DNA of 64,000 nt from a virus (taxonomy: Duplodnaviria; Heunggongvirae; Uroviricota; Caudoviricetes): positions 20,600 to 84,599 of the IMG/VR virus record IMGVR_UViG_3300049825_000338. One strand, written 5' to 3'. The first letter of the stretch is position 1. Each line of letters starts with the position of its first letter. A model generated the notes under the pieces. That model was not told the origin of the DNA and made no database searches. It was given only the letters and a program-made list of their open reading frames with translations. This document shows positions 6,100 to 30,224 of the stretch, piece after piece. Made by a program: the position numbers and the translations under genes.

Positions 6100-6456
6100 C
6101 TAGGCCTGGCTCTTCAACAGGCGAGAATGAATCGTCGGACATGATACCTCCAGAAATGTTCGTAGTTCTGGATCGCAATCTTTGTAGTTATCTGTGTCCC
6201 AACCAGGAAGGCCCAGACACTGCTCGAAAACATGACCAGCAAGACGAGACGAAATGAGCGGAGGATCACCACTAGCAAGTGACTCTTCTAGTAGTACTAG
6301 GAACGTCTTTGCCTGGTTCTTCGCTAACGACATCTCACCGTCGTAAACGATACTGAAAAGTTGGTTGCTCACCCGATGACCCATCCTAGTTCCTTCAATC
6401 CTTCCACAACATCCTTTCTGTGACCAAAGCCACCGACCACCTGCACGTGGCCCCAA
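6100..6456 (-). CDS. hypothetical protein (probable start at internal Met ~6384)
   Basis: ORF between helicase and PrimPol; full-length version overlaps the helicase 3' end by 88 nt. Confidence 0.3.
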   Translation of the reverse strand: MGPRAGGRWLWSQKGCCGRIEGTRMGHRVSNQLFSIVYDGEMSLAKNQAKTFLVLLEESLASGDPPLISSRLAGHVFEQCLGLPGWDTDNYKDCDPELRTFLEVSCPTIHSRLLKSQA

Positions 6457-7964
6457 TCACCATCATACCGGTGTGAACGGCCTACGGACTGAATTACTTG
6501 TGAACGAGTCTCTTCCCTCCACAGGACTTGGTCGGCAGTCTTAGGTGCGTTCTGCGGGACACGGCTAATCACGACCGAGCGAAGAAGCTCTCCCGGCAGA
6601 TCAACACCCGTTCCAGCACCAGCCAGGCAACCAACAATCATGTGGTTCCGATGATTCGCCTTGAACGTCTGAATGGCCTTGATACGATCAACACCGCTGT
6701 AGTAGCGCAGAACTGCTCGCGAAGCCTCTAGGGGCAACTGAGCGACCACTGCGTCAAGATCGTCGCGGCTCACGAACAACCCCATCAGCGCACCTCCCTT
6801 AGCAAACTCGTCAGCAAGAACTGCTGCCACGTTTGCGGCCCATGCAGCGTGTGCCTGACGCTGTGCTTGTGTGCCCTTTGACCACGCCCATGCTGGGCCA
6901 GCGATTTCAGAAACACGACTTGCCGAGACATCGAGACCTTCGAGCTTGACAAGTGAAGCGTCAAGACCAAGCTCTTGCACGTTGCGCTCGCTCAGCGTTC
7001 CCGACATCGCTACGACTTTGCGGCCAATCATCACGTCCGTCAGGTCAGCTGGAATGGTCAGAACTGTGCGGCGACCATCAGTATCAAACTGTGGGCGGCC
7101 CTTGCCCTTCATCGCTCCCATGAAGCGACGTGCGTGCTTGGCCATCTTGTGCTCATCATCGCTAGCCCATTTGACTACCAGCGCCATCGTCTCGTCCGGA
7201 CCTTCAGCAGCGATCTCGGCCTCCGCCTCAGTCACGTTGCGGTAACGAGGACGAACTACCAGCTGCACACCAAGAATGCTCTTCAGCGGCTCAACATCAG
7301 CATGACCTTCGTCCAGCACAATGAGGGCGTCATCAACCATGTTCTTGGCCCACTCAACGTAGCCGCCCAGACCAAGACCAAGCATCGTGGCGTTGGTGAT
7401 CACGACATCCGAGGCGATAGCCGTGTCACGAGCCTGCCACAACGGGCAGGCGCTCGCACGGCGGATCGAACAGTCTTCGCACGGCGATGAGGTAGTGTCT
7501 TCATCTTCCTCGGTCTCGTCGTCTTCCGGATCGCTCACGAGCGCCGTCACAGAATGATTGATGTAGATGCGAGGCTCTAGGCCGCTGCCAATGAACGTGC
7601 CGTTCTCGATCACGAACGCCCGCTGAGCGTCGGTCAACCCAGCGAGGCTGGGCGAGGCCTTCGGGCACCAGTAGTGGCTCTTGCCAACTAGCGTTGCAAT
7701 GGTTGCATCCGTGGCGTTCGACCAGGCGTCGATCTCGCTGGCGTATTGGCTGATCAGACCGTTGGAGTGCATGGCGATTATGCCCTTGCCATGAGCAATA
7801 GCTGCGGCCACGGCGATAAGGCTTTTGCCTACGCCCGTTGGGGCCATCAGAGCAATGTGACCATCCGAACCGTCAATCTCCGCCGCCGCCGCCGCCTGGC
7901 CAGGACGCACTTCGCGCCCCTGGTCTTCGCAGATAGCGGTGAGGACTTCAAGAGTTGTGGACAT
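6369..7964 (-). CDS. DinG/XPD(Rad3)-like ATP-dependent DNA helicase with Fe-S cluster domain
   Basis: Walker A APTGVGKS, DEGH box, four-Cys cluster (YWC...CEDC...C), C-terminal helicase motifs; consensus leaderless promoter immediately upstream. Confidence 0.8.
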   Translation of the reverse strand: MSTTLEVLTAICEDQGREVRPGQAAAAAEIDGSDGHIALMAPTGVGKSLIAVAAAIAHGKGIIAMHSNGLISQYASEIDAWSNATDATIATLVGKSHYWCPKASPSLAGLTDAQRAFVIENGTFIGSGLEPRIYINHSVTALVSDPEDDETEEDEDTTSSPCEDCSIRRASACPLWQARDTAIASDVVITNATMLGLGLGGYVEWAKNMVDDALIVLDEGHADVEPLKSILGVQLVVRPRYRNVTEAEAEIAAEGPDETMALVVKWASDDEHKMAKHARRFMGAMKGKGRPQFDTDGRRTVLTIPADLTDVMIGRKVVAMSGTLSERNVQELGLDASLVKLEGLDVSASRVSEIAGPAWAWSKGTQAQRQAHAAWAANVAAVLADEFAKGGALMGLFVSRDDLDAVVAQLPLEASRAVLRYYSGVDRIKAIQTFKANHRNHMIVGCLAGAGTGVDLPGELLRSVVISRVPQNAPKTADQVLWREETRSQVIQSVGRSHRYDGDWGHVQVVGGFGHRKDVVEGLKELGWVIG

Positions 7965-7970
7965 AGAGAT

Positions 7971-7999
7971 ATTATGCGCCTTCTGAGTAGAAAAGTCAA
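7971..7999 (-). promoter_or_regulatory. sigma-70-type promoter for helicase gene (leaderless)
   Basis: minus strand: TTGACT (7994-7999), 17 nt spacer, CATAAT (7971-7976), then 6 nt, then ATG at 7964. Confidence 0.55.
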
Positions 8000-8044
8000 G
8001 AGGTTGACCAAAGAAATCACGCCAATATCCTCAAACCTCGGGCT

Positions 8045-8230
8045 GCTCAACTAGCGGGCACCTCTAGACGTTTGCAACCGCCTAGCGCCTGGCTACTCGT
8101 GCCGACTGACGTAATGATCCTTCCGCTGTGCTCGTCTGCACACCAGGGTCTGGCCCTACAGCAATGGATTCTAACTCATCCGGCGCAGGATCATTATGTG
8201 ATTGATGGATACTGGCGTGATCTCTCCAGT
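8045..8230 (-). ncRNA. candidate non-coding RNA (~180 nt) transcribed from consensus promoter, no ORF
   Basis: promoter at 8237-8265 points into an interval with no ATG/GTG-initiated ORF >20 codons in any minus frame; predicted long-range 10-bp pairing UAAUGAUCCU/AGGAUCAUUA and local hairpins. Confidence 0.3.
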
Positions 8231-8236
8231 AACTAC

Positions 8237-8265
8237 AGTCTACTCCACCTTGCTCGCTGCGTCAA
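8237..8265 (-). promoter_or_regulatory. sigma-70-type promoter with no downstream ORF
   Basis: minus: TCTTGACG (8260-8265), 17 nt, TAGACT (8237-8242); palindrome GTGACGTACGTCAC 9 bp upstream. Confidence 0.45.
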
Positions 8266-8276
8266 GAGATATCTAT

Positions 8277-8290
8277 GTGACGTACGTCAC
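8277..8290. promoter_or_regulatory. GTGACGTACGTCAC palindromic putative regulator-binding site
   Basis: perfect 14-bp palindrome; same motif recurs at 23866, 29901 and in degenerate form at 21256, always 9 bp upstream of a -35 box. Confidence 0.5.
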
Positions 8291-8553
8291 TTACCTGGCA
8301 TGTAGTGCTTGCCTTTCGCAAGCGTTTTCGCAAGGTTTTTCAGCACGCGAGGGTTATGAGCAGCGCGAGCTTTAAGTACGTTGAGTCGGCCACCCTTACG
8401 CACGCCTATCCGAGAGTTAGAAATAGCCGCAGCCTTCTCTTTAGAGTAACCCTTCGATCTGAGAATATCGTACAGGTACGGCCATTTCAAAGAAGGTGAA
8501 CGCCCGTAGGCATTCACCTTCTTTGCTAACTCAATGGCTGACCGCTCTGGCAT
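8287..8553 (-). CDS. hypothetical basic protein
   Basis: ORF only. Confidence 0.4.
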   Translation of the reverse strand: MPERSAIELAKKVNAYGRSPSLKWPYLYDILRSKGYSKEKAAAISNSRIGVRKGGRLNVLKARAAHNPRVLKNLAKTLAKGKHYMPGK

Positions 8554-8565
8554 GAGACCATCTTA

Positions 8566-9594
8566 TCAGAACGTGATGTACCGTTTGCGCTTTGGTTGCC
8601 CAAACCCAATCGCAAGAGCACCCAGACCAGCCAGCATTGATCCAATTCCGATCATCAACATCATTGAGCTGCCGTCTGATCCTGTCTTAGGAAGTACTGA
8701 TCCGGAGTGAGGGTTTGGTGTGGGAGCTGTAGGAGGAGGCACACCGACTGTCGACACTGGAGGCAGCCCTACATCAACTGTTGTACTTGGTGCGGTGGCT
8801 ACCGTTGTAGTTGGTGCTGGAGCTGTTGATGTTGGGGCCGGGAGCGTGGTTGACGGGGCTGGTGCGGTTGTCGTGGGGGCAGGTGGCTGCGTTGTTGTCG
8901 GAACAGTCGATGTGGGCGGAGTGTCACAGTTTGTGCGTACAACATAATCCATCTCTTGACCGTAGTACATCACGGTGACGGTGTGATCCCCGGAGTTACG
9001 TTCGAAAGTAAAGACTCGCGTCTCGGTGGTGTTGGCAAGAACAACGATGGTGTCATACGTGCTGTCCTTACCATCAATCTCGATCATGAACACGGCGGCT
9101 TCGCCATTTTTTCCATGAGGCACTTCTAGAACGTTTGTAAGCTTTACTACGGCCTTACCGCAAGAAACTTCAACAGAATAGTTGGGATTAGCTGGAACCA
9201 GACTGTCGTCAATTGTTGTAGTTGACTCGTAGTCGTCGTCGTCATCATCAACCGTGGTGTCGGTGCCGTCGTCAGTTGACGGAGGAGTTGACTCGTGACC
9301 GTCGTCGTTACCGTCTGGACTTGTGGTTTCTGACTCTTCATCATCGTTCTCGTCGTTCGATGTTGACGGATAGGTCGGAGGAATGCTGACCGTTACAGGC
9401 GGATAGGTGGCCTCGTCGTCATCGTTCTTGCAGTTATCTTCACCATCGTTCTTGCTAGCGTAGAGACTTTCGCACTTGTCTGACGACTTCGGTGATTCGT
9501 CATTGCCTCTAAAGTTAGCAACCATGGATGACCCGAAGGACAGGGCTGTTGTAGCGACTACTGAGCTAATTACACGTTTGATCATGATGACCAC
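8566..9594 (-). CDS. LPXTG cell-wall-anchored surface protein (sortase substrate)
   Basis: N-terminal signal peptide, acidic D/E-rich region, Thr/Pro-rich region, C-terminal LPKTG followed by a hydrophobic segment and KRKR tail. Confidence 0.7.
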   Translation of the reverse strand: MVIMIKRVISSVVATTALSFGSSMVANFRGNDESPKSSDKCESLYASKNDGEDNCKNDDDEATYPPVTVSIPPTYPSTSNDENDDEESETTSPDGNDDGHESTPPSTDDGTDTTVDDDDDDYESTTTIDDSLVPANPNYSVEVSCGKAVVKLTNVLEVPHGKNGEAAVFMIEIDGKDSTYDTIVVLANTTETRVFTFERNSGDHTVTVMYYGQEMDYVVRTNCDTPPTSTVPTTTQPPAPTTTAPAPSTTLPAPTSTAPAPTTTVATAPSTTVDVGLPPVSTVGVPPPTAPTPNPHSGSVLPKTGSDGSSMMLMIGIGSMLAGLGALAIGFGQPKRKRYITF

Positions 9595-9643: not shown

Positions 9644-10906
9644 TCAGGAAGACAACTCCATGTCCGGAACGTCGGCCTCAGCAGCCAGGCCCTCACCCAC
9701 GCGGAACGTCAAACCCTTGTGCTTCAAGGCATAGGTACGACCCTCTGGCGTCTCAACACGGGCAACCACGCCCTCGATAGGATGCGACTCGTCTAGAGGG
9801 TCCGGACCATCAAAATACACCTCAGCAATCTTAACTGTATAATGAGGATCAGCAGCTTCGTGAATGTGCCGAGCAATCTCTCTGACGTGAGGAACGCCGA
9901 GCTGCGCAGCACGATGCTTGACCTGCGGCCATGAAAGCTCTACAGAAACAGGAGCACCGAAAGCGTCTTCGGTTGTCTGTGTGACTCGGTAGATGTACAC
10001 ACCAATCGAGCCATCAATCTGGCCGTACTTGTAGGTAACACCATCGCCCCACTTCTTAAAGTCCTTCGTATCCTTGAAGTTGTGTCGACCCATGATCGGG
10101 CTGTCCTGAGCCGTGTAACCGACAATCTCGTAGTAGACGATCTCGCCCTTGTGAAGCTTGCCATCGAACAACGAAGCTGCTCGCTTGCGGAATGATTCGT
10201 CCAGGTAGTAGCCAGGGCCGTCAAACTGGTCAAGCACCGTATTACGCGTACCGGTCAAGTACATCCATTCAAACGACTCCGCTGACTTCGTCGGTCGTCG
10301 AAAAAGCTTCTCGATGAGTGTGCGCTTCTCTGTGCTCTCAACCTTGTCGAGCACGTGGCCTGTTCGGCCGCTGGTGCCGTGCATCTTGTGCGTGAAGTAC
10401 ACCATCGAGCCGTCAGGAATCTGATCGAAGTAGTAACCTAGCTGTTCGGTGTCAAAATGCTTCGCAAAGAACGGATTTGACCGTCGAAGCTTGTGATCAT
10501 TCGGACCACCAGCTGCCTTAGTCTTCGGTACATGCTTGAGGCACACTTCGTGACCATTCAATTCCGTGAATATGTCACCGGACTTCAGTGCTGACAGATC
10601 GTAGCCTGTGTAAGCGAGCGATGACAATGGTGCAATGTAGCCGTCAGATGACTCGCCACGAAACTTCTGTGGGCGAACGCGCAACGAGTCGGGGAAGTAC
10701 CCGCCGTCCTTGGACCGTAGCCTGTTCTCGGTTGCATACTCATCGGAGACTGCTAACTCCGAAGAGAAAAAGACGACAAGCTCACCGTCTGTCGTGTCCA
10801 GCCCGACAACAACCTGAAAGCCGCCCACCTGAGCGAGCTTCAGTCGGTCTGCATTTGGGTGCGGACGAATCGACGCCTGTGTAATGAATGCTCCGTGCGT
10901 TGTCAT
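9644..10906 (-). CDS. RNA ligase with N-terminal tRNA-binding (OB-fold) domain
   Basis: HPNADRLKLAQV (tRNA-binding domain signature), KMHGTSGR resembling ligase motif I (KxDG variant); adjacent phosphoesterase genes. Confidence 0.55.
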   Translation of the reverse strand: MTTHGAFITQASIRPHPNADRLKLAQVGGFQVVVGLDTTDGELVVFFSSELAVSDEYATENRLRSKDGGYFPDSLRVRPQKFRGESSDGYIAPLSSLAYTGYDLSALKSGDIFTELNGHEVCLKHVPKTKAAGGPNDHKLRRSNPFFAKHFDTEQLGYYFDQIPDGSMVYFTHKMHGTSGRTGHVLDKVESTEKRTLIEKLFRRPTKSAESFEWMYLTGTRNTVLDQFDGPGYYLDESFRKRAASLFDGKLHKGEIVYYEIVGYTAQDSPIMGRHNFKDTKDFKKWGDGVTYKYGQIDGSIGVYIYRVTQTTEDAFGAPVSVELSWPQVKHRAAQLGVPHVREIARHIHEAADPHYTVKIAEVYFDGPDPLDESHPIEGVVARVETPEGRTYALKHKGLTFRVGEGLAAEADVPDMELSS

Positions 10907-11565
10907 GATGCTCTCTTTCGTGCAATAGAAATTTCTTTGATCAATTCTTGCAAGCTTAACGGCCCTTCGATCCAGCTGTCAACTCCAACGTGAAATGAAT
11001 TCATATCGTCATGGGCGACTTGGCCGTGAGTGTGCCCGTGTACCAAAACGGTTCCGTCTCTGAAGTCCTCGCGCTTTGGGTACCACTTCGCGATGTCGTA
11101 ACCTCGGTCAGCGTCGTCGTGATCTGGAGTGCCAAACCATGGAAAGTGACTGAAAATGGTGCCCTCCAATTCAGGAGCGATAGTGACACCGGCCATAATT
11201 GTAGGGTGGATGGTGAACGTACCTTCGTACAACTCACGAGCACCTTTAGCTCGTTCGGGATTCTTGTGTTGTGCTGCTGGGTGAACGTTGTCGTGGTTGC
11301 CTGGAATCAAGTGCTTGATTCCGTTCAAGTTCTCAGCCATCCATGGAATCGACACAGACCGAGTACCCATAGCGGCATCGCCCACGATCCAGATGTGGTC
11401 GTCCTTACCGACAACTCTATTCCAGGCTGTTTGCAGCACGGCGTTATGTGTCTCGACAGTGCCATCAAACATAGCTCCCTGACGAAATTTCTCAGCCAGA
11501 TTGGTGTGAAAGAAGTGCGTATCACTCCAGAAAAACGTGTTCATAGGGTTACACTCTACCCGCAA
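10903..11565 (-). CDS. calcineurin-like metallophosphoesterase
   Basis: DTHF, GDAAMG, GNHD, GHTHG motifs. Confidence 0.7.
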   Translation of the reverse strand: MRVECNPMNTFFWSDTHFFHTNLAEKFRQGAMFDGTVETHNAVLQTAWNRVVGKDDHIWIVGDAAMGTRSVSIPWMAENLNGIKHLIPGNHDNVHPAAQHKNPERAKGARELYEGTFTIHPTIMAGVTIAPELEGTIFSHFPWFGTPDHDDADRGYDIAKWYPKREDFRDGTVLVHGHTHGQVAHDDMNSFHVGVDSWIEGPLSLQELIKEISIARKRAS

Positions 11566-11577
11566 AACCTAGATATG

Positions 11578-12357
11578 TCAAGTGCTGTACAGAAACTGAT
11601 TCAACGTAACAATCGTGTCGAGAACCGTGTCAAGAACTCTGGCAGAACTGTGAAGCGTAACGCCCTGGCTTGACTCAGCCAAGCCGGTGCAGTGAAAGCC
11701 GTCTACATTGTAATCTTCGTTCATATGCCAGTGACCATGGACAAGTCGTTCAGGTCTGATTTCGTTTAGGCACTGGCGAATGAGGTTCTGCCCTGCCCTG
11801 CTCCCCTTACGGTGCTGCTCGGGGATTCGACTCTGAAAGTCGTCATGACCGTACTTATGAAGTACCAGGCTTACCGGTGCTTCGTGAGTCAGTAGAATGT
11901 GCGCTCGCTTGCCACGAACAAACTCAAGCGAGCTAGGCGAAACAACCTCTTCATCAAAGTAGGAGTGCCCAAGAGAGCGCATGTCACGATCGATGGAATA
12001 GGCACCACCAATGGCGATTATGTCCGTCTCATTCCAGCGCCATGCGCCGTGACGAGGCACAAACTGTGTGCCTTCGACGTCCACAAACGGACCTTCTTCC
12101 AGAAGATAGCCCGAAAGAGACTTCCAATCTTCGTGATTACCCGGCAACCAGAAAAGTGCTACACCGGTTTTGGACTGCTCTTGCCTGGCTACGGAGAGAA
12201 AACGCTGACCAGCTTCGTTACGTGGCCAATATCCGAAATCGCCCATCTGAAAGATGGCATCAATGCCGCTGTCTTGCGCAACCTTGAATGCCGACAGCAG
12301 AGCATAGGTGTCACAGTGAGTGTCACCTAGAAGGAGTACGAAGCGAGGGTCGGTCAT
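11578..12357 (-). CDS. calcineurin-like metallophosphoesterase
   Basis: LLGDTHCD, MGDFGYWP, GNHEDW, LLTHEAP motifs. Confidence 0.7.
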   Translation of the reverse strand: MTDPRFVLLLGDTHCDTYALLSAFKVAQDSGIDAIFQMGDFGYWPRNEAGQRFLSVARQEQSKTGVALFWLPGNHEDWKSLSGYLLEEGPFVDVEGTQFVPRHGAWRWNETDIIAIGGAYSIDRDMRSLGHSYFDEEVVSPSSLEFVRGKRAHILLTHEAPVSLVLHKYGHDDFQSRIPEQHRKGSRAGQNLIRQCLNEIRPERLVHGHWHMNEDYNVDGFHCTGLAESSQGVTLHSSARVLDTVLDTIVTLNQFLYST

Positions 12358-12371
12358 CAGTCTAGTCTACT

Positions 12372-13016
12372 TTAAACGCTTTGGTTTGTCAACTCACTGA
12401 TGCGAACGGATAGTAGCCAGTCGTTAATGGTGCTGTAGTCAGGAAGTTCGTTTAGGCGGGATGCATAACTAGTCACCTGCTCAAAGAGACTCCGAACCGT
12501 CGAGATATCGGCATTGCGACAAAAGTCAATCTGTGCGTCTGTCAGTGCCGGGGTGATTGTTCCCCAGTAAAGAAGTGACTGTAGCTGTAGTGACAGACGA
12601 GCAGCATGGCGCAACAGCTTGGGATCGTCCTTACCGACGCGTGCGTAGCGGATCAGTTGATTGTTGATGTACCCCTTGTATGCTCTCACAGCTTCATTAC
12701 TCAAAAAACAGTGACGAAGCTCAACTAATTCAACTCCGGTCTTTGTCAGCGTCTCGTGAGACGGCAGCCACAGTACTTCATTGACCGTTGGATTACCTTT
12801 CAAAGCTAGAGCGCAAAATCGGCCTAACTCGTGATACGTTGTGTCAAACGGCTCGTGACTTTGAATACTCACGTTCTTGTCATACTCAATACCAAGAACT
12901 TTTCGCGTCGGCGCAAGCTGAACTTCTATATAATCATAATCGGAGTCGGGTGTCTCTAATCCGTAGGCACGTGAACCCACCAAAGCCTTAAGAATCGTGA
13001 TCATGGTGAAGCGCAA
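12372..13016 (-). CDS. nucleotidyltransferase-fold (Pol beta-like) protein
   Basis: LVGSRAYGLETPDSDYDY matches G[SG]x(9-13)DxD NTase motif. Confidence 0.5.
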   Translation of the reverse strand: MRFTMITILKALVGSRAYGLETPDSDYDYIEVQLAPTRKVLGIEYDKNVSIQSHEPFDTTYHELGRFCALALKGNPTVNEVLWLPSHETLTKTGVELVELRHCFLSNEAVRAYKGYINNQLIRYARVGKDDPKLLRHAARLSLQLQSLLYWGTITPALTDAQIDFCRNADISTVRSLFEQVTSYASRLNELPDYSTINDWLLSVRISELTNQSV

Positions 13017-13173
13017 TATACCGTGTCTGTTGCGTCGTTGTCACGCTGATCTACGCAAACGTAGCGACCTAGAAATGTGGCCAGTAGACGTGCAGACAAC
13101 ATAGCGTGCACTTCGATCATAGTCTTTAGTAGCAGGATCGGTCGACGCTTGCCCGTTGTCCACACATCATAAA

Positions 13174-13455
13174 TCACTTTACAAGAACCTTCTGCTTGTA
13201 CGTCTTCAAACCGTAATGCACTTGAAGAGCGTCTTCGACGGTTTCGGCCGTTCCTCGTTCAGAGCACGTAGCCATAATCTGCATCGAGATGTTTGCCGGG
13301 TCAAGACCGCTACCTGTCAACGTGTCCTGACGCTTACCAGCAACGGCAGCGCGATGAGACCAAAGACGCTTTTTCGGATGTTCCGTGACCCCGATGTAGG
13401 CTGGTTGACCGTTAATGATTCCGGAATGTACTGCGTACACATAAAATTGCTTCAC
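13174..13455 (-). CDS. GIY-YIG nuclease domain protein (catalytic domain only)
   Basis: FYVYAV...YIGVTEHPKKRLWSHR. Confidence 0.6.
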   Translation of the reverse strand: MKQFYVYAVHSGIINGQPAYIGVTEHPKKRLWSHRAAVAGKRQDTLTGSGLDPANISMQIMATCSERGTAETVEDALQVHYGLKTYKQKVLVK

Positions 13456-15213: not shown

Positions 15214-16129
15214 GGTGGAACCTTTCGATTAGATTAGCAATTGAATACGTGCGAGTTACGTTCACGTTTGGATGAGCATACGAGTCTGTCGTAAGAATAT
15301 GTGTGTACCGTTTCAGTAGTTCTGATGTGCCTTTCGAAAAGATACCATGAGATACCCACAGCGACAATGGCACTCTACCGCCAACTATGTCAGCAAGACC
15401 ATGAAATGTTGCACCACCATCACAGATATCGTCAACAACAAGCCCGTTAGTGACGCCTTCCGGAATAGCGAGAGACTCGTACCCAGTGATACTGCCGGTG
15501 TCGAAGTTTCGTTTCTTTATTCCGTAGCTCACTTTCTTAATCCCTAGGAATTCTGCAAACGCTTCGGCGCGACCTACTGCCCCATGATCTGGAGTAATGA
15601 CCCAATCAAACTTTGGCATCCATACTTCAGCCTTTGCCAGAACTTCGTGAGCGCTGTAGACAACAACGTTTTTGTTCCAGTTATGAAGCCAATTCAGTGA
15701 ATGAGGATCAAACACGCCGACATAATCGCAAGCGTCCATGAAGTAATCCATGATGATGGAAGCCGTATCGGGCGTTCCATTTTGTTGACGATCCTGACGT
15801 CCTCCGTAGATATACGGAATGAATGCAGAGACGTAGGCACCAGCACCAACCAAAGCATCTACCAGCAGCATCGACCGAAACATACATGATGTCGAACTAT
15901 GGTCAACAACCAACGTCATTTCAAGTCCAGCAAACTTCGGTGGATCAGTCAACTGCACCTGCTGTGCTCCATCAGGAAAAACAAACTCGGCGTACCACGA
16001 CTGATCTGTCTGATACAGGATCATAGCACTGAACGATTTAGGTAAAGTAGACCAGCGCACAGCAACACTCCAAGGATCAGCACTACCGCTCCCATGGCCA
16101 ACGCCCGCTGCTAGCGAGTCCGACAACAC
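15185..16129 (-). CDS. prs: ribose-phosphate pyrophosphokinase (PRPP synthetase); likely start at MILYQT (~16024)
   Basis: IPYIYGGRQDRQ (Prs hallmark) and VVDDICDGGATF PRPP-binding loop. Confidence 0.8.
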   Translation of the reverse strand: MLSDSLAAGVGHGSGSADPWSVAVRWSTLPKSFSAMILYQTDQSWYAEFVFPDGAQQVQLTDPPKFAGLEMTLVVDHSSTSCMFRSMLLVDALVGAGAYVSAFIPYIYGGRQDRQQNGTPDTASIIMDYFMDACDYVGVFDPHSLNWLHNWNKNVVVYSAHEVLAKAEVWMPKFDWVITPDHGAVGRAEAFAEFLGIKKVSYGIKKRNFDTGSITGYESLAIPEGVTNGLVVDDICDGGATFHGLADIVGGRVPLSLWVSHGIFSKGTSELLKRYTHILTTDSYAHPNVNVTRTYSIANLIERFHREHTSNLAN

Positions 16130-17612
16130 TAGGAATCAGATCAAGAATCTGATCCGAAAATCCGCCGACAACAAAGCGGTTATGTGAGCCATGCTGGGCA
16201 TGGGCAACTGCGTATCCGGCGACATTCCATGTGACTACAGGAACGTTAACGATGCTGGTATCTCTAACCGACGTCTGCTCATCTGTCAAGATGATAACCA
16301 GATCGTACCTGCCTCGTCGGAATGCTTCTGACGTGCAGTGCCACGTGTCAGTGCCGCCGTTAGGACGGAACCATCCAGAATTCACGACACCTAGAACAGA
16401 CTGTGTGTCGAGATGAGCGTTCTTCTGTTCACGAAGAAGGCGAGTATCGTAGCTCACGATATCGGCTGACTTAGCTCGTCTAGCAAGTGTAACTGCAAAT
16501 AGTCCTGCAACCTGCGATCTCGTAGGAGACGTTCCCCGGCTGTCGTTTCCGACGCGTGTGCCCATAGAGCCAGAGCAGTCAACCATAATAAGAACGTTCT
16601 TGTTGATTAACGGAAGGTTCTTCACCGACTCTTCTAACGCATCGTTCAACGGCTGCTTGAAGCGATCGCTCTTTGTGTTCATGTACGCAGACAAGAAGCG
16701 ATACGGAAGCTGCTTGGACTTAGCTACTTCTTCAGCGTTTGCGATTCGGGCTGCCGCCTTAGCAAGTTCTTTAACGGGAACGTGAGCGTCTTCTAGGTTG
16801 CGCAGGTTGCGCAGAAGCGCCATGTAGCCTAGCTCTGGAACTAGTGCAGACCATGCAGACGCATCCAGGCCTCCAGGCAGCCATGAACCAAGACGTTCCC
16901 ATGAGAAGCCAGCCGACACGGCCTCGTCTAGCCGTGCACGTCGCTCAGCTGCTGGAATGCTCTGAAGATTCAGAACTTGAGAAATTCGTCCTAGCTCTTC
17001 GGGAGTACTTACGGCATTACGTCGTCGATCAAGCGCAAACTTGAACAGCGCAGACTGCTTCTCTGTTGACGGTATAGGGTGCACAATCTCGATGACGTCA
17101 CCGAACCGCCAGCCCTTATTAGAGCCGTCGTAGCGAAGCAACGCGTTCTCTGTGTACAGGCGTTTCACAGCATCACCAATGCCGCGCTTTAGCGCCATTG
17201 GCATCTGGCGACCGTACTGGCTGAACCAGTAACCGAGCATTTCTCCCGGCTCGTCAGCGCGCTGAAGAACGGAGTTAACAACCGAACGAGCGTTCGGTCC
17301 CTTCATCCGAGCGTACTCTGCTGCAATGACAAGCGAGGCCGAACGAATGTTTGCCTCATTGCGGAGCCACTTCACGAACGGAGCAATCCATGACGGATCA
17401 CACCTACTCACCAATGTCGCAAGACGATCAAGCTGGTCAGCGCCGCTTTCGTAGAACTGATCCTTGAGGAGTCCGGATACGGCCGTCAGAAACAACTCTG
17501 TTTGAGCAGTGTTCTCGAATCCTAGTCCGCCTTCAAACGTCTGTACTCGGTTGGTTGTTGATGCCAGTAGTGCTGGCCGCGCCTTGGCTGGTGTGTTACT
17601 GAATCGTGCCAT
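16083..17612 (-). CDS. rsr: Ro60-like TROVE domain protein with C-terminal vWA domain
   Basis: alpha-helical TROVE-like N-terminal ~340 aa (QFYESG...IAAEYARM), then vWA MIDAS motif VLIMVDCSGSMG and downstream T/D motifs. Confidence 0.6.
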   Translation of the reverse strand: MARFSNTPAKARPALLASTTNRVQTFEGGLGFENTAQTELFLTAVSGLLKDQFYESGADQLDRLATLVSRCDPSWIAPFVKWLRNEANIRSASLVIAAEYARMKGPNARSVVNSVLQRADEPGEMLGYWFSQYGRQMPMALKRGIGDAVKRLYTENALLRYDGSNKGWRFGDVIEIVHPIPSTEKQSALFKFALDRRRNAVSTPEELGRISQVLNLQSIPAAERRARLDEAVSAGFSWERLGSWLPGGLDASAWSALVPELGYMALLRNLRNLEDAHVPVKELAKAAARIANAEEVAKSKQLPYRFLSAYMNTKSDRFKQPLNDALEESVKNLPLINKNVLIMVDCSGSMGTRVGNDSRGTSPTRSQVAGLFAVTLARRAKSADIVSYDTRLLREQKNAHLDTQSVLGVVNSGWFRPNGGTDTWHCTSEAFRRGRYDLVIILTDEQTSVRDTSIVNVPVVTWNVAGYAVAHAQHGSHNRFVVGGFSDQILDLIPSVVGLASSGRWPWER

Positions 17613-21243: not shown

Positions 21244-21295
21244 GAAGTTTGTGTATGACCTACGTCACACCTCGTGCTTACAACATTTGAACATA

Positions 21296-22140: not shown

Positions 22141-22623
22141 TCATGGCTTGCCTTTCTTTGGTCTACCAAGGTGAATACCTTTGGCTTTTGCTGCGGCCAT
22201 ACCGGCCTTCGTGCGTTCTACGATGATCTCTCGCTCAAACTCTGCAACAGCCGAGAGAATTCCCGCTACTAGCTTACCGACCGGTGTGCCCAAATCAACC
22301 TGAAGATCAAGAACGCTGAGAGACCAGCCGTTGCCCTGGAACTCTTCCAGAAGAGTGGCAAAGTCCTTGACTGAGCGCGACAACCGATCAAGCTTGGCAA
22401 CCACAACCCCGTCTGCCTCTCCACGGCGAAGCATAGACAGCGCCCTCTGTAGCTCAGGGCGAGCCTCAGCACTTTTGCCCGAGGCGGCTTCGGTAATGTG
22501 ACCAACGATGTCGTGCTCATTCAACTGACTCCAGAGTCCAATCTTATGCCACTGTGCGTCGAGACCGTGGCCATCCTCGGCTTGGTCGAACGTTGAGACT
22601 CGCGTGTAAGCAATATAGCGCAC
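22141..22623 (-). CDS. serine recombinase (resolvase/invertase) catalytic domain, lacks HTH domain
   Basis: YIAYTRVSTFDQ with catalytic Ser, ends at GRPKKGKP where HTH normally begins. Confidence 0.6.
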   Translation of the reverse strand: MRYIAYTRVSTFDQAEDGHGLDAQWHKIGLWSQLNEHDIVGHITEAASGKSAEARPELQRALSMLRRGEADGVVVAKLDRLSRSVKDFATLLEEFQGNGWSLSVLDLQVDLGTPVGKLVAGILSAVAEFEREIIVERTKAGMAAAKAKGIHLGRPKKGKP

Positions 22624-23854: not shown

Positions 23855-23875
23855 GAGGCGAGTATGTGACGTTCG

Positions 23876-24562: not shown

Positions 24563-24898
24563 TCATAAGACAAGATTTCCGGTTTCTGTAAGTTCGTAGG
24601 TGCCTGGTAGTGTTCCCCAGTAGTCAAAGTCATCAGATAGACGTTTCGTCCACGCTTTGGTGTACTCACATCGAAGCAAAGCGTCAGGGCCAGCAAGGCG
24701 TTCGCAAATCGGGTGTTGAATGACCCACCCGTCTCTGTCGATATCAATCATATGATGCCTGTCACGAAGTACGACTAATAAGTGGTCTGCGTCGGTAATT
24801 ACGTCTTCCTGGTCGTGTCCTGTTGCAATGAGAATCTGCTGAAGACGGCTAAAAGCGTCAACAAGATAACTAAACGACTGTGGCTCCGGACTCGTCAT
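24563..24898 (-). CDS. hypothetical protein
   Basis: ORF, start overlaps the phosphatase stop. Confidence 0.4.
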   Translation of the reverse strand: MTSPEPQSFSYLVDAFSRLQQILIATGHDQEDVITDADHLLVVLRDRHHMIDIDRDGWVIQHPICERLAGPDALLRCEYTKAWTKRLSDDFDYWGTLPGTYELTETGNLVL

Positions 24899-25572
24899 TA
24901 GACCATCACCGTTGTGAACGTGTAATTATCCGGTGCGCCCTTGCTCTCACAAAGATCAGCTAACCGAGCGTTGACGGCTTGCGGAGTGCGTTCGCTGTCA
25001 CGAATAACCTCCTCAATCTCCGTGTCGGTTGAATAGTTGAAGAGACCGTCAGTCGCCAAGATAAGCAATTCGCCGTCATGAAGTTCTAGGCCTCCATGAT
25101 GACCTACCTCCATAAGATAGCCGAGGCATGACGTCAAAATGCCGTTATGATCTTCGTGATCCTGTGTCAGCCGCATCAGAACATCATGATCGGTGTAGAT
25201 ATAGATGCGCGAGTCTCCCGCCCACGCAACGTCAAGAACATTAGTCTCGCTGAGACGAGCAATGACCATAGTCGTGCCAGGAAACCCAGTCAGGCGTCCG
25301 TGAGGGTTCAGCTTCTCAACCTCTGCATTCGCCTGCTGCACAACAAACTCCAAATCAGCTTGGGCGTCATTCGTCATTATCATCCACGTAGATGCTGCTG
25401 CATCTTGGCTGGCGACGTCCCCCTGCGGGTGACCGCCTAGACCATCAAACACCGCCCACCAGCGAGCACCGCTACAGTGTGAATCCTCTTGCGCCTGACG
25501 TCGTTGGCCAATGGCGGTTGTTGTGTGGTAAATCACAACATGAAGTCTACGACGGACGACCGATTCCGACAA
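24898..25572 (-). CDS. PP2C-family Ser/Thr protein phosphatase
   Basis: WAVFDGLGGH, DGLFN, C-terminal DN motif typical of PPM/SpoIIE phosphatases. Confidence 0.7.
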   Translation of the reverse strand: MSESVVRRRLHVVIYHTTTAIGQRRQAQEDSHCSGARWWAVFDGLGGHPQGDVASQDAAASTWMIMTNDAQADLEFVVQQANAEVEKLNPHGRLTGFPGTTMVIARLSETNVLDVAWAGDSRIYIYTDHDVLMRLTQDHEDHNGILTSCLGYLMEVGHHGGLELHDGELLILATDGLFNYSTDTEIEEVIRDSERTPQAVNARLADLCESKGAPDNYTFTTVMV

Positions 25573-26005: not shown

Positions 26006-26084
26006 TCACTACTCTACCACACTTCTGTAACAATTGTAACATTCAGAGGAGAAGACTTACTTCGGCTATACTTAAAGGAGTCAA

Positions 26085-26590: not shown

Positions 26591-26600
26591 ACTTCCAATA

Positions 26601-27107
26601 CTAGATGGAACAGATCATCAACTGTGGCCCGCCAAGAATCGAATCTTCGGCAAGCTGAAGCGTCTGAATAACCTCACTCCATTCCAGGCCACCAATCCCT
26701 GCGCCAATGCGTGGGATGTAGAGGAAGTCGATGCCGAACCCAAACCGCTTGTTGATCGAGTCTAGGCTGGACAAGGCGTTGATCGTTGCATCTCTAATCG
26801 CCTGCTGCTCTGCAAAGGGACCAGGCTCCACCTGAGTGATCATATTGAACACCAACGGAGACTCTGGAGTAACGCCTGCCGGATTGCCGTCATGCCATTG
26901 CACAACTTGACCGAGATTGACGGCTCCATTGCGGCACTGGTCGGCGTAGTATTCGTAGCATGTCGGGTATAGCTGACGAACCTGGCGAGCAAACCCCGCC
27001 CCCATCATTCCGCGAGCGTTGCAGCCATGCGCAAACGCACGCGGCCTGAAGTCAAACAAATTCCCAAATACCTCAATCAAGAGGATTCTCCGTTCCCATG
27101 TAGTCAA
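26601..27107 (-). CDS. macro domain (ADP-ribose binding/processing) protein
   Basis: HGCNARGMMGAGFARQV resembles the macro-domain N..GGGV loop. Confidence 0.6.
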   Translation of the reverse strand: MTTWERRILLIEVFGNLFDFRPRAFAHGCNARGMMGAGFARQVRQLYPTCYEYYADQCRNGAVNLGQVVQWHDGNPAGVTPESPLVFNMITQVEPGPFAEQQAIRDATINALSSLDSINKRFGFGIDFLYIPRIGAGIGGLEWSEVIQTLQLAEDSILGGPQLMICSI

Positions 27108-27771
27108 CCATCTTGCGCATCTTTGTGATAGCGCCGTCGTATTTACGACGAACCATCTCTCCGGTTATCTGCATCTGTGCTCCGATGTCTTTGAAGATCA
27201 TACCGGACGAACGCATACTGACAACCAGACGCTCTTCAGGAGTAAGATGCTTGAGCAATGGTGAAAGCGTGGACTTGAAAGATGTGTCGCTAGAAATAGA
27301 ATCACTTTCGTCGTCGACAGAGCCAAATATAGTGTAAGGCATCCTCTCCAACGATCGACTAGAACGAAGTGACGCAAGAGTTCTGATAGCCTCTGACGGG
27401 TTATCGTCGTACTTCATTTCGTGATTGACTCTAGCGTTCAACTCGTCGCCCAGAATGATGTTGGCCGTTTTACGAATAGCCTCCTGAATCTCGTTGCGAA
27501 CCCAGATCGAAGCATACGTCGAGAACTTGATTCCACGAGACGGATCAAAACCCTCAATAGCTCTAATCAGACCAATAACCGCAGCCTGCTCCATATCCTC
27601 ACCGTGTTTGCTGTACAGAGCGTGCTTACGCGCCCAGCTGATTGCTAGCTTATGGTTGTGCAGCACAAGCGTGTCACGAATCGATCGATCGCGTGTGGTG
27701 TAAAACTCCTTGAGCAGACGCTCCTGATCTGCAAGCGCCAAAACATCTCGTGCCTTTACCATGATCGCCAT
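27073..27771 (-). CDS. RNA polymerase sigma factor (sigma-70 family, SigB/F-like)
   Basis: region 2 (FSTYASIWVRNEI), region 4 HTH (LTPEERLVVSMRSSG...IGAQMQITGEMVRRKYDGAITKMRK). Confidence 0.75.
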   Translation of the reverse strand: MAIMVKARDVLALADQERLLKEFYTTRDRSIRDTLVLHNHKLAISWARKHALYSKHGEDMEQAAVIGLIRAIEGFDPSRGIKFSTYASIWVRNEIQEAIRKTANIILGDELNARVNHEMKYDDNPSEAIRTLASLRSSRSLERMPYTIFGSVDDESDSISSDTSFKSTLSPLLKHLTPEERLVVSMRSSGMIFKDIGAQMQITGEMVRRKYDGAITKMRKMVDYMGTENPLD

Positions 27772-29606: not shown

Positions 29607-29859
29607 GAGGTAATTCTGAAGAGTTTCAGAAACACGTCGCCCAACTACTCCGTTCGCTTTACCCTCCTCCTATCGTGGCCACTCCAGGGATGCTCTCAAG
29701 CTTGCGTTTCGATGGTGGCACTGCGTCTATCGCTGTAATCAGCCTCCCCTCCACCACCTTCATGAGCCTTGCAGCCGTAGGGCGTTTCATCGGGTGCCTT
29801 TCACGTTACCTAGCAGGTCGGCGTGCTTCTGAAACTCTTCAGTTGTTCTTACAGACATC

Positions 29860-29942
29860 ACTGTAGTCCTACTGACCAACAAAGTCAAGCAGAACATGAC
29901 GTGACGTGCGTCACTTGACAAGTGACATAAAGAGAGTAAGAT
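29860..29942. promoter_or_regulatory. divergent promoter pair flanking a central GTGACGTGCGTCAC palindrome
   Basis: plus: TTGACA (29915-29920), 16 nt, TAAGAT (29937-29942), 6 nt, ATG 29949. Minus: TTGACT (29883-29888), 17 nt, TACAGT (29860-29865). Palindrome 29901-29914 between them. Confidence 0.5.
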
Positions 29943-29948
29943 GATCTC

Positions 29949-30224
29949 ATGAAAGACCTCTCCTACAAGCAAATCTCCGACACCTGCGCATGGTTTGCGG
30001 CGAACGCCACCAATACCAGCGCCATGTCATGCGTACGAGACGCCTTCAACTGCCTTCGCAGCATCGACCACGGACACTACTTCCCGTTCTACCAGGACGT
30101 AGCCGAGGGTCTGCCGCAGTCATGGACGCAATCCGCTGCCGCATGGCTGGTCAAGGCCGCACAGCACGAGTTTGGCTTCAACGTTCCCGAAGCTCTGAAC
30201 TATCTCAGGCCGGTGACACCGTAA
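29949..30224 (+). CDS. hypothetical protein, lone plus-strand gene driven by divergent leaderless promoter
   Basis: promoter as above. Confidence 0.5.
   Translation: MKDLSYKQISDTCAWFAANATNTSAMSCVRDAFNCLRSIDHGHYFPFYQDVAEGLPQSWTQSAAAWLVKAAQHEFGFNVPEALNYLRPVTP

What the first reader, a model, noticed from the sequence alone, without database searches (positions are those of the whole stretch)
8045..8265. Consensus promoter firing into a ~180-nt ORF-less interval: candidate structured ncRNA
A full promoter module sits at 8237-8290: the palindrome, 9 bp, TCTTGACG, 17 nt, then TAGACT. It is of the same design as the mRNA promoters. The ~185 nt that follow have no ATG/GTG/TTG-initiated ORF longer than 20 codons on the transcribed strand. 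They can form a 10-bp long-range helix (UAAUGAUCCU with AGGAUCAUUA) enclosing local hairpins. Given the phage-encoded Ro60 homolog, a cognate Y-RNA-like or other regulatory RNA is plausible. The overlapping plus-strand ORF 8072-8305 is on the wrong strand for this cluster.
Basis: seen in the sequence. Interest (0 to 1): 0.55.

Follow-up and report, generated by a model that had tools for sequence, protein, structure and literature searches.

The report
Stem-clamped orphan phage small RNA candidate

Summary
The promoter (TTGACG-17-TAGACT, 8265..8237, minus strand), with the GTGACGTACGTCAC palindrome 9 bp upstream of TCTTGAC, matches about 12 other promoters in the window. Those all start leaderless genes exactly 7 nt after the -10 hexamer. 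Here that position is A8230, and no ATG follows. A8230 is also the first base of a 24-bp helix (19 Watson-Crick, 5 G.U) that pairs 8230-8207 with 8030-8007. The unit is therefore 8230..8007 (224 nt), not 8230..8045.

The minus strand folds to -100.3 kcal/mol (z -5.5), against -82.7 for the plus strand. A second unit of the same build (palindrome-promoter, 228 nt, 21-bp end helix) lies at 29843..29616, but it holds a 43-codon ORF with coding-like codon usage.

The Y-RNA reading fails every test available. There is no Rfam or tRNA-like match, no CGAA/GNCGAA motif and no T-arm, and the unit lies 7.9 kb from the Ro60 gene. I found no homologue in any related phage, so there is no covariation evidence.

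Best reading: an orphan, end-clamped small RNA. The duplex probably stabilises it or marks it for RNase III-type processing. Its partner and function are unknown.

The parts
8277..8290 (.). 14-bp palindrome GTGACGTACGTCAC (half-sites GTGA-N6-TCAC), a likely regulator-binding site. It overlaps the TGA stop codon of the upstream DUF7218 gene.
   Evidence: It occurs 4 times in the window against 0.31 expected, always 9 nt upstream of (T/G)CTTGAC. It is conserved in relatives L001 and L019, including directly upstream of their helicase promoters.
8237..8265 (-). Promoter: -35 TTGACG (8265..8260), 17-nt spacer, -10 TAGACT (8242..8237).
   Evidence: It has the same design as about 12 leaderless-gene promoters of this window.
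8230..8230 (-). Predicted transcription start (A), 7 nt after the -10 hexamer. It is also the first paired base of the end helix.
   Evidence: Inferred from the fixed -10-to-ATG distance of the leaderless promoters.
8007..8230 (-). The whole candidate RNA, 224 nt.
   Evidence: MFE -100.3 kcal/mol, z -5.5 for 8233..8000. The plus strand gives -82.7, z -3.8. It holds no ORF of 20 codons or more.
8207..8230 (-). 5' arm of the end helix: ACUGGAGAGAUCACGCCAGUAUCC.
   Evidence: 24 contiguous pairs, 19 Watson-Crick and 5 G.U.
8007..8030 (-). 3' arm of the end helix: GGAUAUUGGCGUGAUUUCUUUGGU.
   Evidence: As DNA, only 19 bp with 2 mismatches pair (I5).
8187..8196 (-).
   Evidence: I2.
8112..8121 (-). 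3' strand of the 10-bp helix (AGGAUCAUUA).
   Evidence: I2.
8122..8186 (-). Interior of domain A. A 3-bp helix encloses three predicted hairpins: GGAU/AUCC with an 8-nt loop, UAGGG/CCCUG with a 5-nt loop, and UGUGC/GCACA with a 6-nt loop. The overall shape is cloverleaf-like.
   Evidence: Predicted only. The interior alone is not more stable than shuffles (z -0.98). A covariance model of this domain finds no second copy.
8031..8105 (-). Domain B: a long imperfect hairpin plus a small hairpin, ahead of the 3' arm.
   Evidence: Predicted only.
7971..7999 (-). Separate promoter TTGACT-17-CATAAT for the leaderless helicase gene (ATG at 7964). It starts 7 nt after the end helix.
29616..29843 (-). 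Second unit of the same build, 228 nt. Palindrome at 29914..29901, promoter at 29888..29860. End helix of 21 contiguous pairs (29842-29822 with 29636-29616), extendable to 32 positions with 3 mismatches. Its 5' arm also begins ACUGRAGAG. It contains a 43-codon ORF at 29790..29659.
   Evidence: (I1). ORF codon usage LLR 0.26 per codon. A 34-aa version was called by JGI and has no homologues. Its interior is less structured than shuffles (z +1.8).

Best explanation
The interval is a separate transcription unit for a small non-coding RNA of about 224 nt, specific to this phage lineage.

Steps, with their status:
1. Host-type RNA polymerase starts at A8230 from a palindrome-controlled promoter of the phage's standard design. 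This is inferred from the promoter grammar.
2. The first 24 nt pair with nt 201-224 of the transcript. The RNA is therefore closed by a duplex of two or more helical turns that buries the 5' nucleotide. The complementarity is shown in the sequence. That it forms in vivo is inferred.
3. No intrinsic terminator follows. The 3' end is therefore most likely made by processing. A 24-31-bp duplex is a double-strand-specific RNase III-type substrate, like the long-range stems that bracket precursor rRNAs. Trimming back to the duplex is an alternative. After processing, the clamped ends should protect the RNA from 5'-end-dependent and 3' exonucleolytic decay. This whole step is inferred.
4. The 176-nt interior carries the 10-bp helix with three hairpins, plus a second hairpin domain. 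It would be the part that is presented to a protein partner. That partner is unknown, and the phage Ro60/RNA-repair proteins are only one candidate.
For: 1. Promoter fit. The module matches about 12 promoters that each place an ATG 7-9 nt after the -10 hexamer. Only two promoters of this design lack such an ATG, at 8265 and 29888.
2. Exceptional helices. The two longest long-range helices in the 64 kb have 24 and 21 contiguous pairs, against a shuffle maximum of 15-18. They start 0 and about 11 nt after the predicted starts of exactly those two promoters.
3. Strand asymmetry. All 5 non-Watson-Crick positions of the 24-bp helix are G.U on the minus strand. The minus strand folds 17.6 kcal/mol better than the plus strand, z -5.5 against -3.8.
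4. No coding signal. The unit has no ORF, non-coding-like codon usage and no family hit for the overlapping ORFs.
5. Independent downstream gene. The helicase gene has its own leaderless promoter 7 nt after the helix, so the unit is not needed as a leader.
6. No terminator. No terminator-like site lies between 8290 and 7965.
Against: - No homologue was found, so there is no covariation:
  - nhmmer and blastn against the fetched relatives found nothing.
  - A covariance model of domain A found only itself.
  - Isolated-phage records contain neither the DNA nor the helicase protein.
  - In relatives the helicase gene is preceded directly by other genes or by the palindrome-promoter.
- Without the end helix, the interior is not significantly structured (z -0.98).
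- The sister unit looks protein-coding, and it folds equally well on either strand. The end helix is therefore not by itself a mark of a non-coding RNA.
- There are no expression data.
- The wobble bias over both units is modest: 7 G.U against 1-2 A.C.
Confidence: 0.5

Rival explanations
1. Y-RNA-like partner of the phage Ro60. The end helix would be the Ro60-binding module and the variable interior would tether an effector such as PNPase or the RNA-repair enzymes, as in Ro60-Y RNA-PNPase complexes.
For: - The window encodes a Ro60 homologue within an RNA-repair/NAD cluster: RlaP, two phosphoesterases, RNA ligase, NAMPT and a PRPP-synthetase-like protein. Its closest solved relative is phiLo Ro60, E 1.7e-21.
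- phiLo Ro60 binds two phage RNAs that are defined by a 5'-3' stem (PMC12135203).
- No canonical YrlA or tRNA-like RNA exists anywhere in the window, so the Ro60 homologue has no identified RNA partner.
- The two units share the first 9 nt of the helix (ACUGRAGAG) but differ inside. This is the pattern expected for a conserved binding stem with variable modules.
Against: - There is no CGAA/GNCGAA motif, no bulged GGUCCGA-type helix and no T- or D-arm.
- The helix is continuous rather than stem-bulge-stem.
- The unit lies 7.85 kb from the Ro60 gene, whereas described bacterial and phage Y RNAs are adjacent to it (PMC4201824, PMC12135203).
- The sister unit looks coding.
Confidence: 0.13
2. Decayed small-gene cassette (moron). 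Unit 1 would be the remnant of a short protein-coding unit like unit 2, that is, promoter + end helix + small ORF. It has lost its start codon. It may still be transcribed, but it would have no function of its own.
For: - Unit 2 has the same architecture and size and carries a 43-codon ORF with coding-like codon usage and a weak GAAAGG ribosome site.
- One frame of unit 1 is open for 59 codons with no start codon.
- That frame shows a weak peptide match to the unit 2 product (P..LESI/PGV.T). Shuffle p is 0.012, uncorrected for the frames tried.
Against: - Codon usage of that frame is at the level of off-frame sequence, 0.05.
- The matching peptide segments sit about 85 nt apart relative to the helix arms, so they are not collinear.
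- The promoter and a 24-bp helix whose only departures are wobble pairs are intact, which suggests continued selection on the RNA.
- The 10-bp inner helix has no counterpart in unit 2.
Confidence: 0.15
3. DNA-level element. The inverted repeats would be recombination sites of an invertible segment, or the ends of a small inserted element, rather than an RNA helix.
For: - Two pairs of inverted repeats flank segments of 163-176 bp. That is the size range of invertible switches (own knowledge).
- The phage encodes a serine recombinase catalytic domain at 22141..22623, E 1.5e-39.
- Unit 2 folds equally well on both strands.
- In relatives the palindrome-promoter abuts the helicase gene, so the unit looks like an insertion.
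Against: - As DNA, the unit 1 repeat has only 19 bp with 2 mismatches. As RNA it has 24 pairs, and the helix starts exactly at the predicted transcription start.
- No promoter lies inside either segment.
- The recombinase stops right after the catalytic domain and has no DNA-binding helix-turn-helix. It is conserved in relatives that lack the units.
- The repeats of the two units differ apart from 9 nt.
- There is no target-site duplication and there are no further copies.
Confidence: 0.1
4. Cis-acting leader of the helicase/replication operon. Polymerase starting at 8230 would read through, and the structure would act on that transcript, as an attenuator, an antiterminator or a processing site that separates upstream and downstream messages.
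For: - No terminator lies between the unit and the helicase gene.
- The upstream DUF7218 gene also has no terminator before the unit, so read-through transcripts must contain the helix.
- In relatives the palindrome-promoter drives the helicase gene directly.
Against: - The helicase ATG has its own promoter at the leaderless distance and no Shine-Dalgarno sequence at the proper spacing. A leadered copy would be poorly translated (inference).
- Unit 2 shows the same build in front of an unrelated gene.
Confidence: 0.1
5. Chance: an accidental promoter-like sequence next to accidental complementarity.
For: The unit is not conserved elsewhere.
Against: - The helix lengths exceed all shuffles.
- The two exceptional helices coincide with the only two promoters that lack an ATG.
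- The palindrome-promoter module is over-represented.
Confidence: 0.02

Closest known systems
Y RNAs / bacterial and phage Y-RNA-like RNAs (YrlA of Salmonella, Mycobacterium and mycobacteriophages; Yrl1/Yrl2 of Thermus phage phiLo)
   Same: - It is a small RNA whose 5' and 3' ends pair into a stem that closes a variable interior.
- It is encoded by a phage that has a Ro60 homologue. The closest solved relative of that Ro60 is the phiLo protein.
- It is modular, with two units per genome, as in several species with two Y RNAs (PMC4201824).
   Different: - It matches no Rfam model.
- It has no CGAA/GNCGAA motif and no bulge in the stem.
- It has no tRNA-like T/D domain.
- At 224 nt it is about twice the length I recall for bacterial Y RNAs (own knowledge).
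- It lies 7.9 kb from the Ro60 gene instead of next to it.
Long-range processing stems of precursor rRNAs, and the RNase III sites of phage T7 early transcripts (own knowledge)
   Same: - A duplex of two or more helical turns forms between sequences that flank a functional RNA or lie between genes.
- There is no terminator, and the duplex sits inside a transcript that is likely polycistronic.
   Different: - Here the 5' arm begins at a promoter's own start site.
- The enclosed RNA is only 176 nt.
- T7 sites are local hairpins of about 60 nt.
- Cleavage has not been shown.
5'-terminal stabiliser stem-loops of bacterial RNAs (ompA, ermC and aprE leaders; own knowledge)
   Same: The 5' nucleotide is base-paired, and that is what protects these leaders from 5'-end-dependent decay.
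   Different: Those are short local hairpins on mRNAs. Here the partner strand lies 200 nt downstream.
Phage morons and mobile regulatory cassettes (for example the promoter-plus-stem-loop units flanking small ORFs in T4-type phages; own knowledge)
   Same: - It is a self-contained promoter-plus-short-insert unit placed between conserved genes.
- Relatives lack it.
- The sister unit carries a small orphan ORF.
   Different: - Unit 1 has no ORF.
- The stem spans the whole unit rather than forming a local terminator hairpin.
Invertible DNA switches with a serine invertase (Hin/Gin type; own knowledge)
   Same: Inverted repeats of about 20-30 bp flank a segment of about 170 bp, and a serine recombinase gene is present in the genome.
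   Different: - No promoter lies inside the segment.
- The recombinase lacks a DNA-binding domain.
- In unit 1 the repeats pair better as RNA than as DNA.

Membership tests
Y RNA / YrlA (Rfam families; Chen et al. 2014, PMC4201824) | Match to the curated covariance models (Y_RNA, YrlA and related) | tested here: not met
   No match at gathering score in the window. None at E<=10 in 7900-8400. None at E<=5 in the whole window.
Y RNA / YrlA | Ro60-binding motif: GNCGAAN0-1G near the 5' end (bacterial), CGAA in the bulge (phiLo Yrl1/2), or GGUCCGA in a bulged helix (animal) | tested here: not met
   Unit 1 has no CGAA, no G.CGAA.?G and no GGUCCGA within one mismatch. Its helix is continuous over 24 pairs.
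Y RNA / YrlA | tRNA-like domain with T-arm and D-arm | tested here: not met
   ARAGORN finds nothing. There is no tRNA-model hit at permissive thresholds. One heptamer, UUAGAAU (starting at 8174), resembles a T-loop but has no 5-bp T-stem.
Y RNA / YrlA | Stem formed by the 5' and 3' ends of the RNA | tested here: met
   A 24-bp helix pairs 8230-8207 with 8030-8007 and starts at the predicted transcription start.
Y RNA / YrlA | Encoded next to the Ro60 gene | tested here: not met
   The Ro60 gene is at 16083..17612. The unit starts 7,853 nt downstream, with eight ORFs in between.
Y RNA / YrlA | Physical binding to Ro60 | not testable with these tools
   This needs a gel-shift or pull-down experiment.
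RNase III-processed long-range stem | Double-stranded RNA of about 20 bp or more, formed by distant segments of one transcript | tested here: met
   24 contiguous pairs, and about 31 with the inner extension across a one-base bulge.
RNase III-processed long-range stem | Staggered cleavage in the duplex in vivo | not testable with these tools
   This needs end-mapping in wild-type and rnc-mutant hosts.
Intrinsic terminator | G+C-rich hairpin followed by a U tract | tested here: not met
   No terminator-like site lies between 8290 and 7965.
Invertible DNA switch | Inverted repeats flanking a segment that carries a promoter, plus a site-specific recombinase with a DNA-binding domain | tested here: not met
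   The repeats are present. No promoter lies inside. The only recombinase is a catalytic domain that stops before any helix-turn-helix. Orientation variants could not be tested.
tmRNA / 6S RNA / phi29-type packaging RNA (other end-paired RNAs) | Match to the curated models or to the ARAGORN tmRNA detector | tested here: not met
Small protein-coding gene | ORF with a start codon, coding-like codon usage and homologues | tested here: not met
   Unit 1 has no ORF of 20 codons or more, and its LLR is 0.05. For contrast, the unit 2 ORF scores 0.26 but has no homologue.

The most novel reading that the evidence does not exclude
The two stem-clamped units are a new class of partner RNAs for the phage Ro60/RNA-repair module. 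They would lack both the tRNA-like domain and the CGAA motif of all described bacterial and phage Y RNAs. The conserved base of the helix (ACUGRAGAG and its complement) would be the protein-binding site, and the divergent interiors would act as effector or decoy modules.
Probability: 0.12. Interest if true: 0.7.

Novelty: new variant of a known kind. Interest (0 to 1): 0.4.

Why it matters
- **If the RNA is real**, it adds an unclassified family to the short list of phage-encoded structured small RNAs, in an actinophage-like lineage that has no cultured representative.
- **Regular promoter grammar.** The transcription start falls 7 nt after the -10 hexamer, mRNAs are leaderless, and some promoters share an upstream palindrome. 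This makes the prediction unusually sharp. The 5' end should be A8230, and the RNA should be closed by a 24-bp duplex. A single RNA-seq or RACE experiment can test this.
- **Ro60 in phages.** This phage has a Ro60 gene but no recognisable Y RNA. Either its Ro60 works with host RNAs, or its partner looks unlike known Y RNAs.
- **If the RNA is not real**, the finding still documents a tidy case of promoter-plus-helix cassettes inserted between conserved genes.

Tried and rejected
1. **Rfam.** Gathering thresholds on the window, permissive thresholds on 7900-8400 and on the whole window, and gathering thresholds on eight related loci gave nothing relevant.
2. **ARAGORN.** It found no tRNA or tmRNA in the window.
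3. **Isolated-phage records.** Megablast, sensitive blastn and tblastn of the helicase all gave no match.
4. **Relatives by helicase.**
   - There are 22 proteins at 42-59% identity.
   - I fetched eight contigs.
   - Scans of IMG/VR, JGI metagenome contigs and GTDB genomes gave only distant or no relatives.
   - nhmmer and blastn of the unit, a scan for long-range helices, and a covariance model of domain A found no counterpart.
5. **Shared 16-mer.** GAGATAACCGGCCCTG is shared by the non-coding stretches upstream of the helicase in L001 and L019. Its one near-match in the window lies in a small ORF. Six of its eight viral-contig hits lie in regions that look protein-coding, and the other two (L023, L027) were not followed up.
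6. **Helix-start pattern.** ACTGRAGAG..CACGCC in IMG/VR gave 119 chance hits, none with a partner arm.
7. **Palindrome-promoter pattern.** In IMG/VR it matched 45 loci. Several have the module, but none has an end-clamped unit downstream.
8. **Homology of the two units.** Local alignment is not significant: p 0.09 for the 5' arms and 0.5 for the interiors. A MAFFT/RNAalifold alignment was uninformative.
9. **Antisense targets.** No complementarity of 13 nt or more to unit 1 exists elsewhere in the window, and unit 2 has a single 13-nt match, which is chance level.
10. **Look-ups that failed.** Two look-ups of the window's own contig (the 791-aa ORF and the helicase) were not on record. The 42 kb of the contig outside the window therefore could not be searched for further units.
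11. **Ro60 relatives in IMG/VR.** Only one was found, at 31% identity.
Full report
**1. What is in the sequence**

All genes around the finding are on the minus strand.
- An 88-aa DUF7218 protein (8553..8287) ends with its TGA inside the palindrome GTGACGTACGTCAC (8290..8277).
- Nine bases later comes TCTTGACG, then a 17-nt spacer, then TAGACT (8242..8237).
- After a further 272 nt a second promoter, TTGACT-17-CATAAT (7999..7971), sits 6 nt before the ATG of a 531-aa Rad3/DinG-type helicase (7964..6369).
- The non-coding gap is 322 nt (8286..7965).

**2. Is the promoter credible?**

I listed every CTTGAC in the window together with what follows it.
- About a dozen minus-strand sites have the form (T/C)CTTGAC(A/T), 17 nt, xAxxxT, and then an ATG 7-9 nt after the -10 hexamer.
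- Four of these ATGs are exactly the starts of long ORFs: 7964, 4793, 21208 and 29571.
- The phage therefore makes leaderless mRNAs from host-type promoters, and the transcription start can be placed 7 nt after the -10 hexamer.
- The palindrome occurs four times, against 0.31 expected, always 9 nt upstream of (T/G)CTTGAC.
- It is conserved in two related phage contigs, where it lies directly upstream of the helicase promoter.
- The module at 8290..8237 fits this grammar fully. Only two promoters of this design are not followed by a usable ATG: this one, and the one at 29888.

**3. The structure**

A much larger feature was missed.
- Bases 8230-8207 (ACUGGAGAGAUCACGCCAGUAUCC) pair without interruption with 8030-8007 (GGAUAUUGGCGUGAUUUCUUUGGU). 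That is 24 pairs, 19 Watson-Crick and 5 G.U.
- A few more pairs continue inwards across a one-base bulge.
- The first paired base, A8230, is the predicted transcription start.
- For 8233..8000 the minus strand folds to -100.3 kcal/mol (z -5.5, 0 of 200 shuffles as good). The plus strand reaches -82.7 (z -3.8).
- All five non-Watson-Crick positions are G.U on the minus strand and would be C.A mismatches on the plus strand. As DNA, only 19 bp with two mismatches pair.
- A scan of both strands of the 64 kb for contiguous long-range helices (G.U allowed, 80-320 nt apart) ranks this helix first at 24 pairs. Twelve dinucleotide shuffles of the whole window never exceed 18.
- The unit is therefore 8230..8007 (224 nt), not 8230..8045.
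- A caveat applies. Without the end helix, the 176-nt interior is not significantly more stable than shuffles (z -0.98). Its cloverleaf-like arrangement (the 10-bp helix, a 3-bp helix and three hairpins) and the second hairpin domain are predictions only.

**4. Coding potential**
- No minus-strand ORF of 20 codons or more lies in 8230..8051.
- I built a codon-usage log-likelihood from 20 long genes of the window. It gives 0.33 +/- 0.13 per codon for real 43-codon windows and -0.22 +/- 0.17 for off-frame windows.
- The longest open frame of the unit has 59 codons and no start codon. It scores 0.05.
- The plus-strand ORF 8072..8305 scores 0.00.
- Neither ORF that overlaps the unit, the plus-strand 8072..8305 nor the minus-strand TTG ORF 7847..8050, matches a PHROG family.

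**5. A second unit**

The second-ranked helix of the window has 21 contiguous pairs, 29842-29822 with 29636-29616. It extends to 32 positions with three mismatches.
- It follows the other ATG-less palindrome-promoter (29914..29860), about 11 nt after the predicted start.
- At 228 nt it is almost the same size as unit 1.
- It is followed at once by the next leaderless promoter.
- Its 5' arm begins with the same nine bases, ACUGRAGAG.
- Beyond that, the two units are not significantly similar.

The two exceptional helices coincide with the only two promoters that lack an ATG. That is hard to ascribe to chance, and it ties the helices to transcription starts.

Unit 2 differs in three ways that matter.
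- Its interior is less structured than shuffles (z +1.8).
- It folds as well on the plus strand as on the minus strand.
- It contains a 43-codon ORF (29790..29659) with a weak GAAAGG ribosome site and coding-like codon usage of 0.26. JGI called 34 codons of it as a gene. It has no homologue among 5.8 billion protein clusters.

The end helix is therefore a property of a cassette type, not proof of a non-coding RNA. A weak peptide resemblance exists between an open frame of unit 1 and the unit 2 product (shuffle p 0.012, uncorrected, not collinear with the helices). It keeps open the possibility that unit 1 is a decayed copy.

**6. Relatives**

The phage has no relative among isolated phages, by DNA or by helicase protein.
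- The protein database holds 22 helicase homologues at 42-59% identity, all from metagenomes.
- I fetched eight contigs. They share gene order: helicase, DUF6011, kinase, DUF7178, terminase, DUF7218, ribonucleotide reductase. They also share a small serine recombinase.
- None has a counterpart of the unit. nhmmer and blastn found nothing, no comparable helix lies next to a promoter, and a covariance model of the 91-nt inner domain hit only itself.
- In most of them, genes abut the helicase gene. In L001 and L019 a short non-coding stretch follows a palindrome-promoter upstream of the helicase, but it is unrelated in sequence and weakly structured.
- The unit is thus lineage-specific. No covariation test was possible, and this is the main weakness of the case.

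**7. The Y-RNA idea**

The window does encode a Ro60 homologue (16083..17612; TROVE E 8e-13, Ro60 vWA domain E 2e-4).
- It sits within a cluster of RNA-repair and NAD-salvage genes: a PRPP-synthetase-like protein, NAMPT, RlaP, two phosphoesterases and an RNA ligase.
- Its best solved relative is the Ro60 of Thermus phage phiLo, E 1.7e-21.
- That protein binds two phage RNAs recognised by a 5'-3' stem and a bulge carrying CGAA (PMC12135203).
- Bacterial and mycobacteriophage YrlA RNAs are defined by GNCGAAN0-1G near the 5' end, tRNA-like T and D arms, and a position next to the Ro60 gene (PMC4201824).

Unit 1 meets only the first trait, the paired ends.
- It has no CGAA at all.
- It has no tRNA-like element.
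- It matches no Rfam model.
- It lies 7,853 nt and eight genes from the Ro60 gene.

Membership is therefore not supported. That it works like a Y RNA is not excluded, because this Ro60 has no recognisable RNA partner anywhere in the 64 kb. I give that reading about 0.13.

**8. Other readings**
- **DNA switch.** A serine recombinase catalytic domain is encoded at 22141..22623. It ends right after the catalytic domain with no helix-turn-helix. It is conserved in relatives that lack the units. No promoter lies inside either segment. For unit 1 the repeat pairs better as RNA than as DNA.
- **Cis-acting leader.** The helicase gene has its own leaderless promoter 7 nt after the helix. Unit 2 has the same build in front of an unrelated gene.
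- **Base-pairing regulator of phage genes.** No complementarity of 13 nt or more to unit 1 occurs elsewhere in the window.

**9. Most likely mechanism**
- Shown in the sequence: a standard, palindrome-associated promoter; no ORF; and a helix that starts at the predicted +1 and closes a 224-nt unit with a minus-strand bias.
- Inferred: the RNA is made.
- Inferred: its 3' end is produced by processing, because no terminator follows and a duplex of 24-31 bp is a natural RNase III-type substrate, as in precursor rRNAs.
- Inferred: the clamped ends make it long-lived.
- Inferred: the interior is presented to a protein.
- Confidence in this package is about 0.5. The identity of the partner is open.

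**10. Verdict**
- It is a plausible new, orphan phage small RNA that is cheap to test, but it rests on one genome.
- Interest is 0.4.

Noticed in passing
window 29616-29914 (minus strand): A second promoter-plus-end-helix unit of 228 nt has a 21-32-bp helix and a 43-codon orphan ORF (29790..29659) with coding-like codon usage. Its interior is less structured than shuffles, and it folds equally well on both strands.
   Followed up: yes
window 8277-8290, 21255-21268, 23866-23879, 29901-29914; L001 9577, 9699, 9940; L019 6207, 6880, 8808, 9951, 11572: The palindrome GTGACGNACGTCAC (a CRP-like GTGA-N6-TCAC) recurs upstream of promoters and is conserved in related phage contigs. It is probably the operator of a shared regulator. 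The regulator was not identified.
   Followed up: partly
window, minus strand, e.g. 4828, 7999, 20644, 21243, 23088, 23712, 29606, 40149, 43360: About a dozen promoters of one design place an ATG 7 nt after the -10 hexamer. Most early and middle genes appear to be expressed as leaderless mRNAs, which fits an actinobacterial host.
   Followed up: partly
window 29915-30224 (plus strand): A divergent promoter, TTGACA-16-TAAGAT, shares the 29.9-kb palindrome and leads to a leaderless 91-aa plus-strand ORF (29949..30224). That ORF is the only plus-strand gene candidate I examined within this otherwise minus-strand block. The layout resembles a regulatory switch.
   Followed up: no
window 8488-8525: A 17-bp hairpin with a 4-nt loop (94% complementary) lies inside the first 22 codons of the DUF7218 ORF, just downstream of the LPKTG-protein gene. 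It may be a terminator or a processing site.
   Followed up: no
window 8566-9594 (minus strand): A 342-aa phage protein has a signal-like N-terminus, an acidic region, a Thr/Pro-rich region and a C-terminal LPKTG sorting motif followed by a hydrophobic tail. It looks like a sortase-anchored surface protein encoded by a phage. It has no Pfam or PHROG match.
   Followed up: no
window 9644-18457 (minus strand): A cluster encodes an RIIB-like protein, Ro60, a PRPP-synthetase-like protein, NAMPT, RlaP, two metallophosphoesterases and an RNA ligase. No YrlA or tRNA gene is found anywhere in the 64 kb.
   Followed up: partly
window 22141-22623 (minus strand): A serine recombinase (Resolvase domain, E 1.5e-39) stops right after the catalytic domain and has no DNA-binding helix-turn-helix. 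Relatives carry versions of 178-190 aa.
   Followed up: partly
window 24898-27771 (minus strand): The phage encodes a PP2C phosphatase (24898..25572), a macro-domain protein (26601..27107) and a sigma-70-family sigma factor (27073..27771).
   Followed up: no
L019 9822-9950 and L001 9618-9698: In two relatives a palindrome-promoter upstream of the helicase gene fires into a short ORF-less stretch. Both stretches contain the motif GGAGATAACCGGCCCTGC (18 nt, identical in both). This is a different candidate small RNA or binding site, and it is weakly structured.
   Followed up: partly
L200 9777-9849: In the only viral-contig relative of this Ro60 (31% identity), the Rfam tRNA model hits at 45.6 bits about 150 nt upstream of the Ro60 gene, but ARAGORN does not call a tRNA there. 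It could be a tRNA-like Y RNA.
   Followed up: no
L017 2607-2627 / 2858-2878: A 21-bp long-range complementarity (3 G.U) spans the 3' end of the helicase gene and the 5' part of the DUF6011 gene in a relative. It lies within coding sequence.
   Followed up: no
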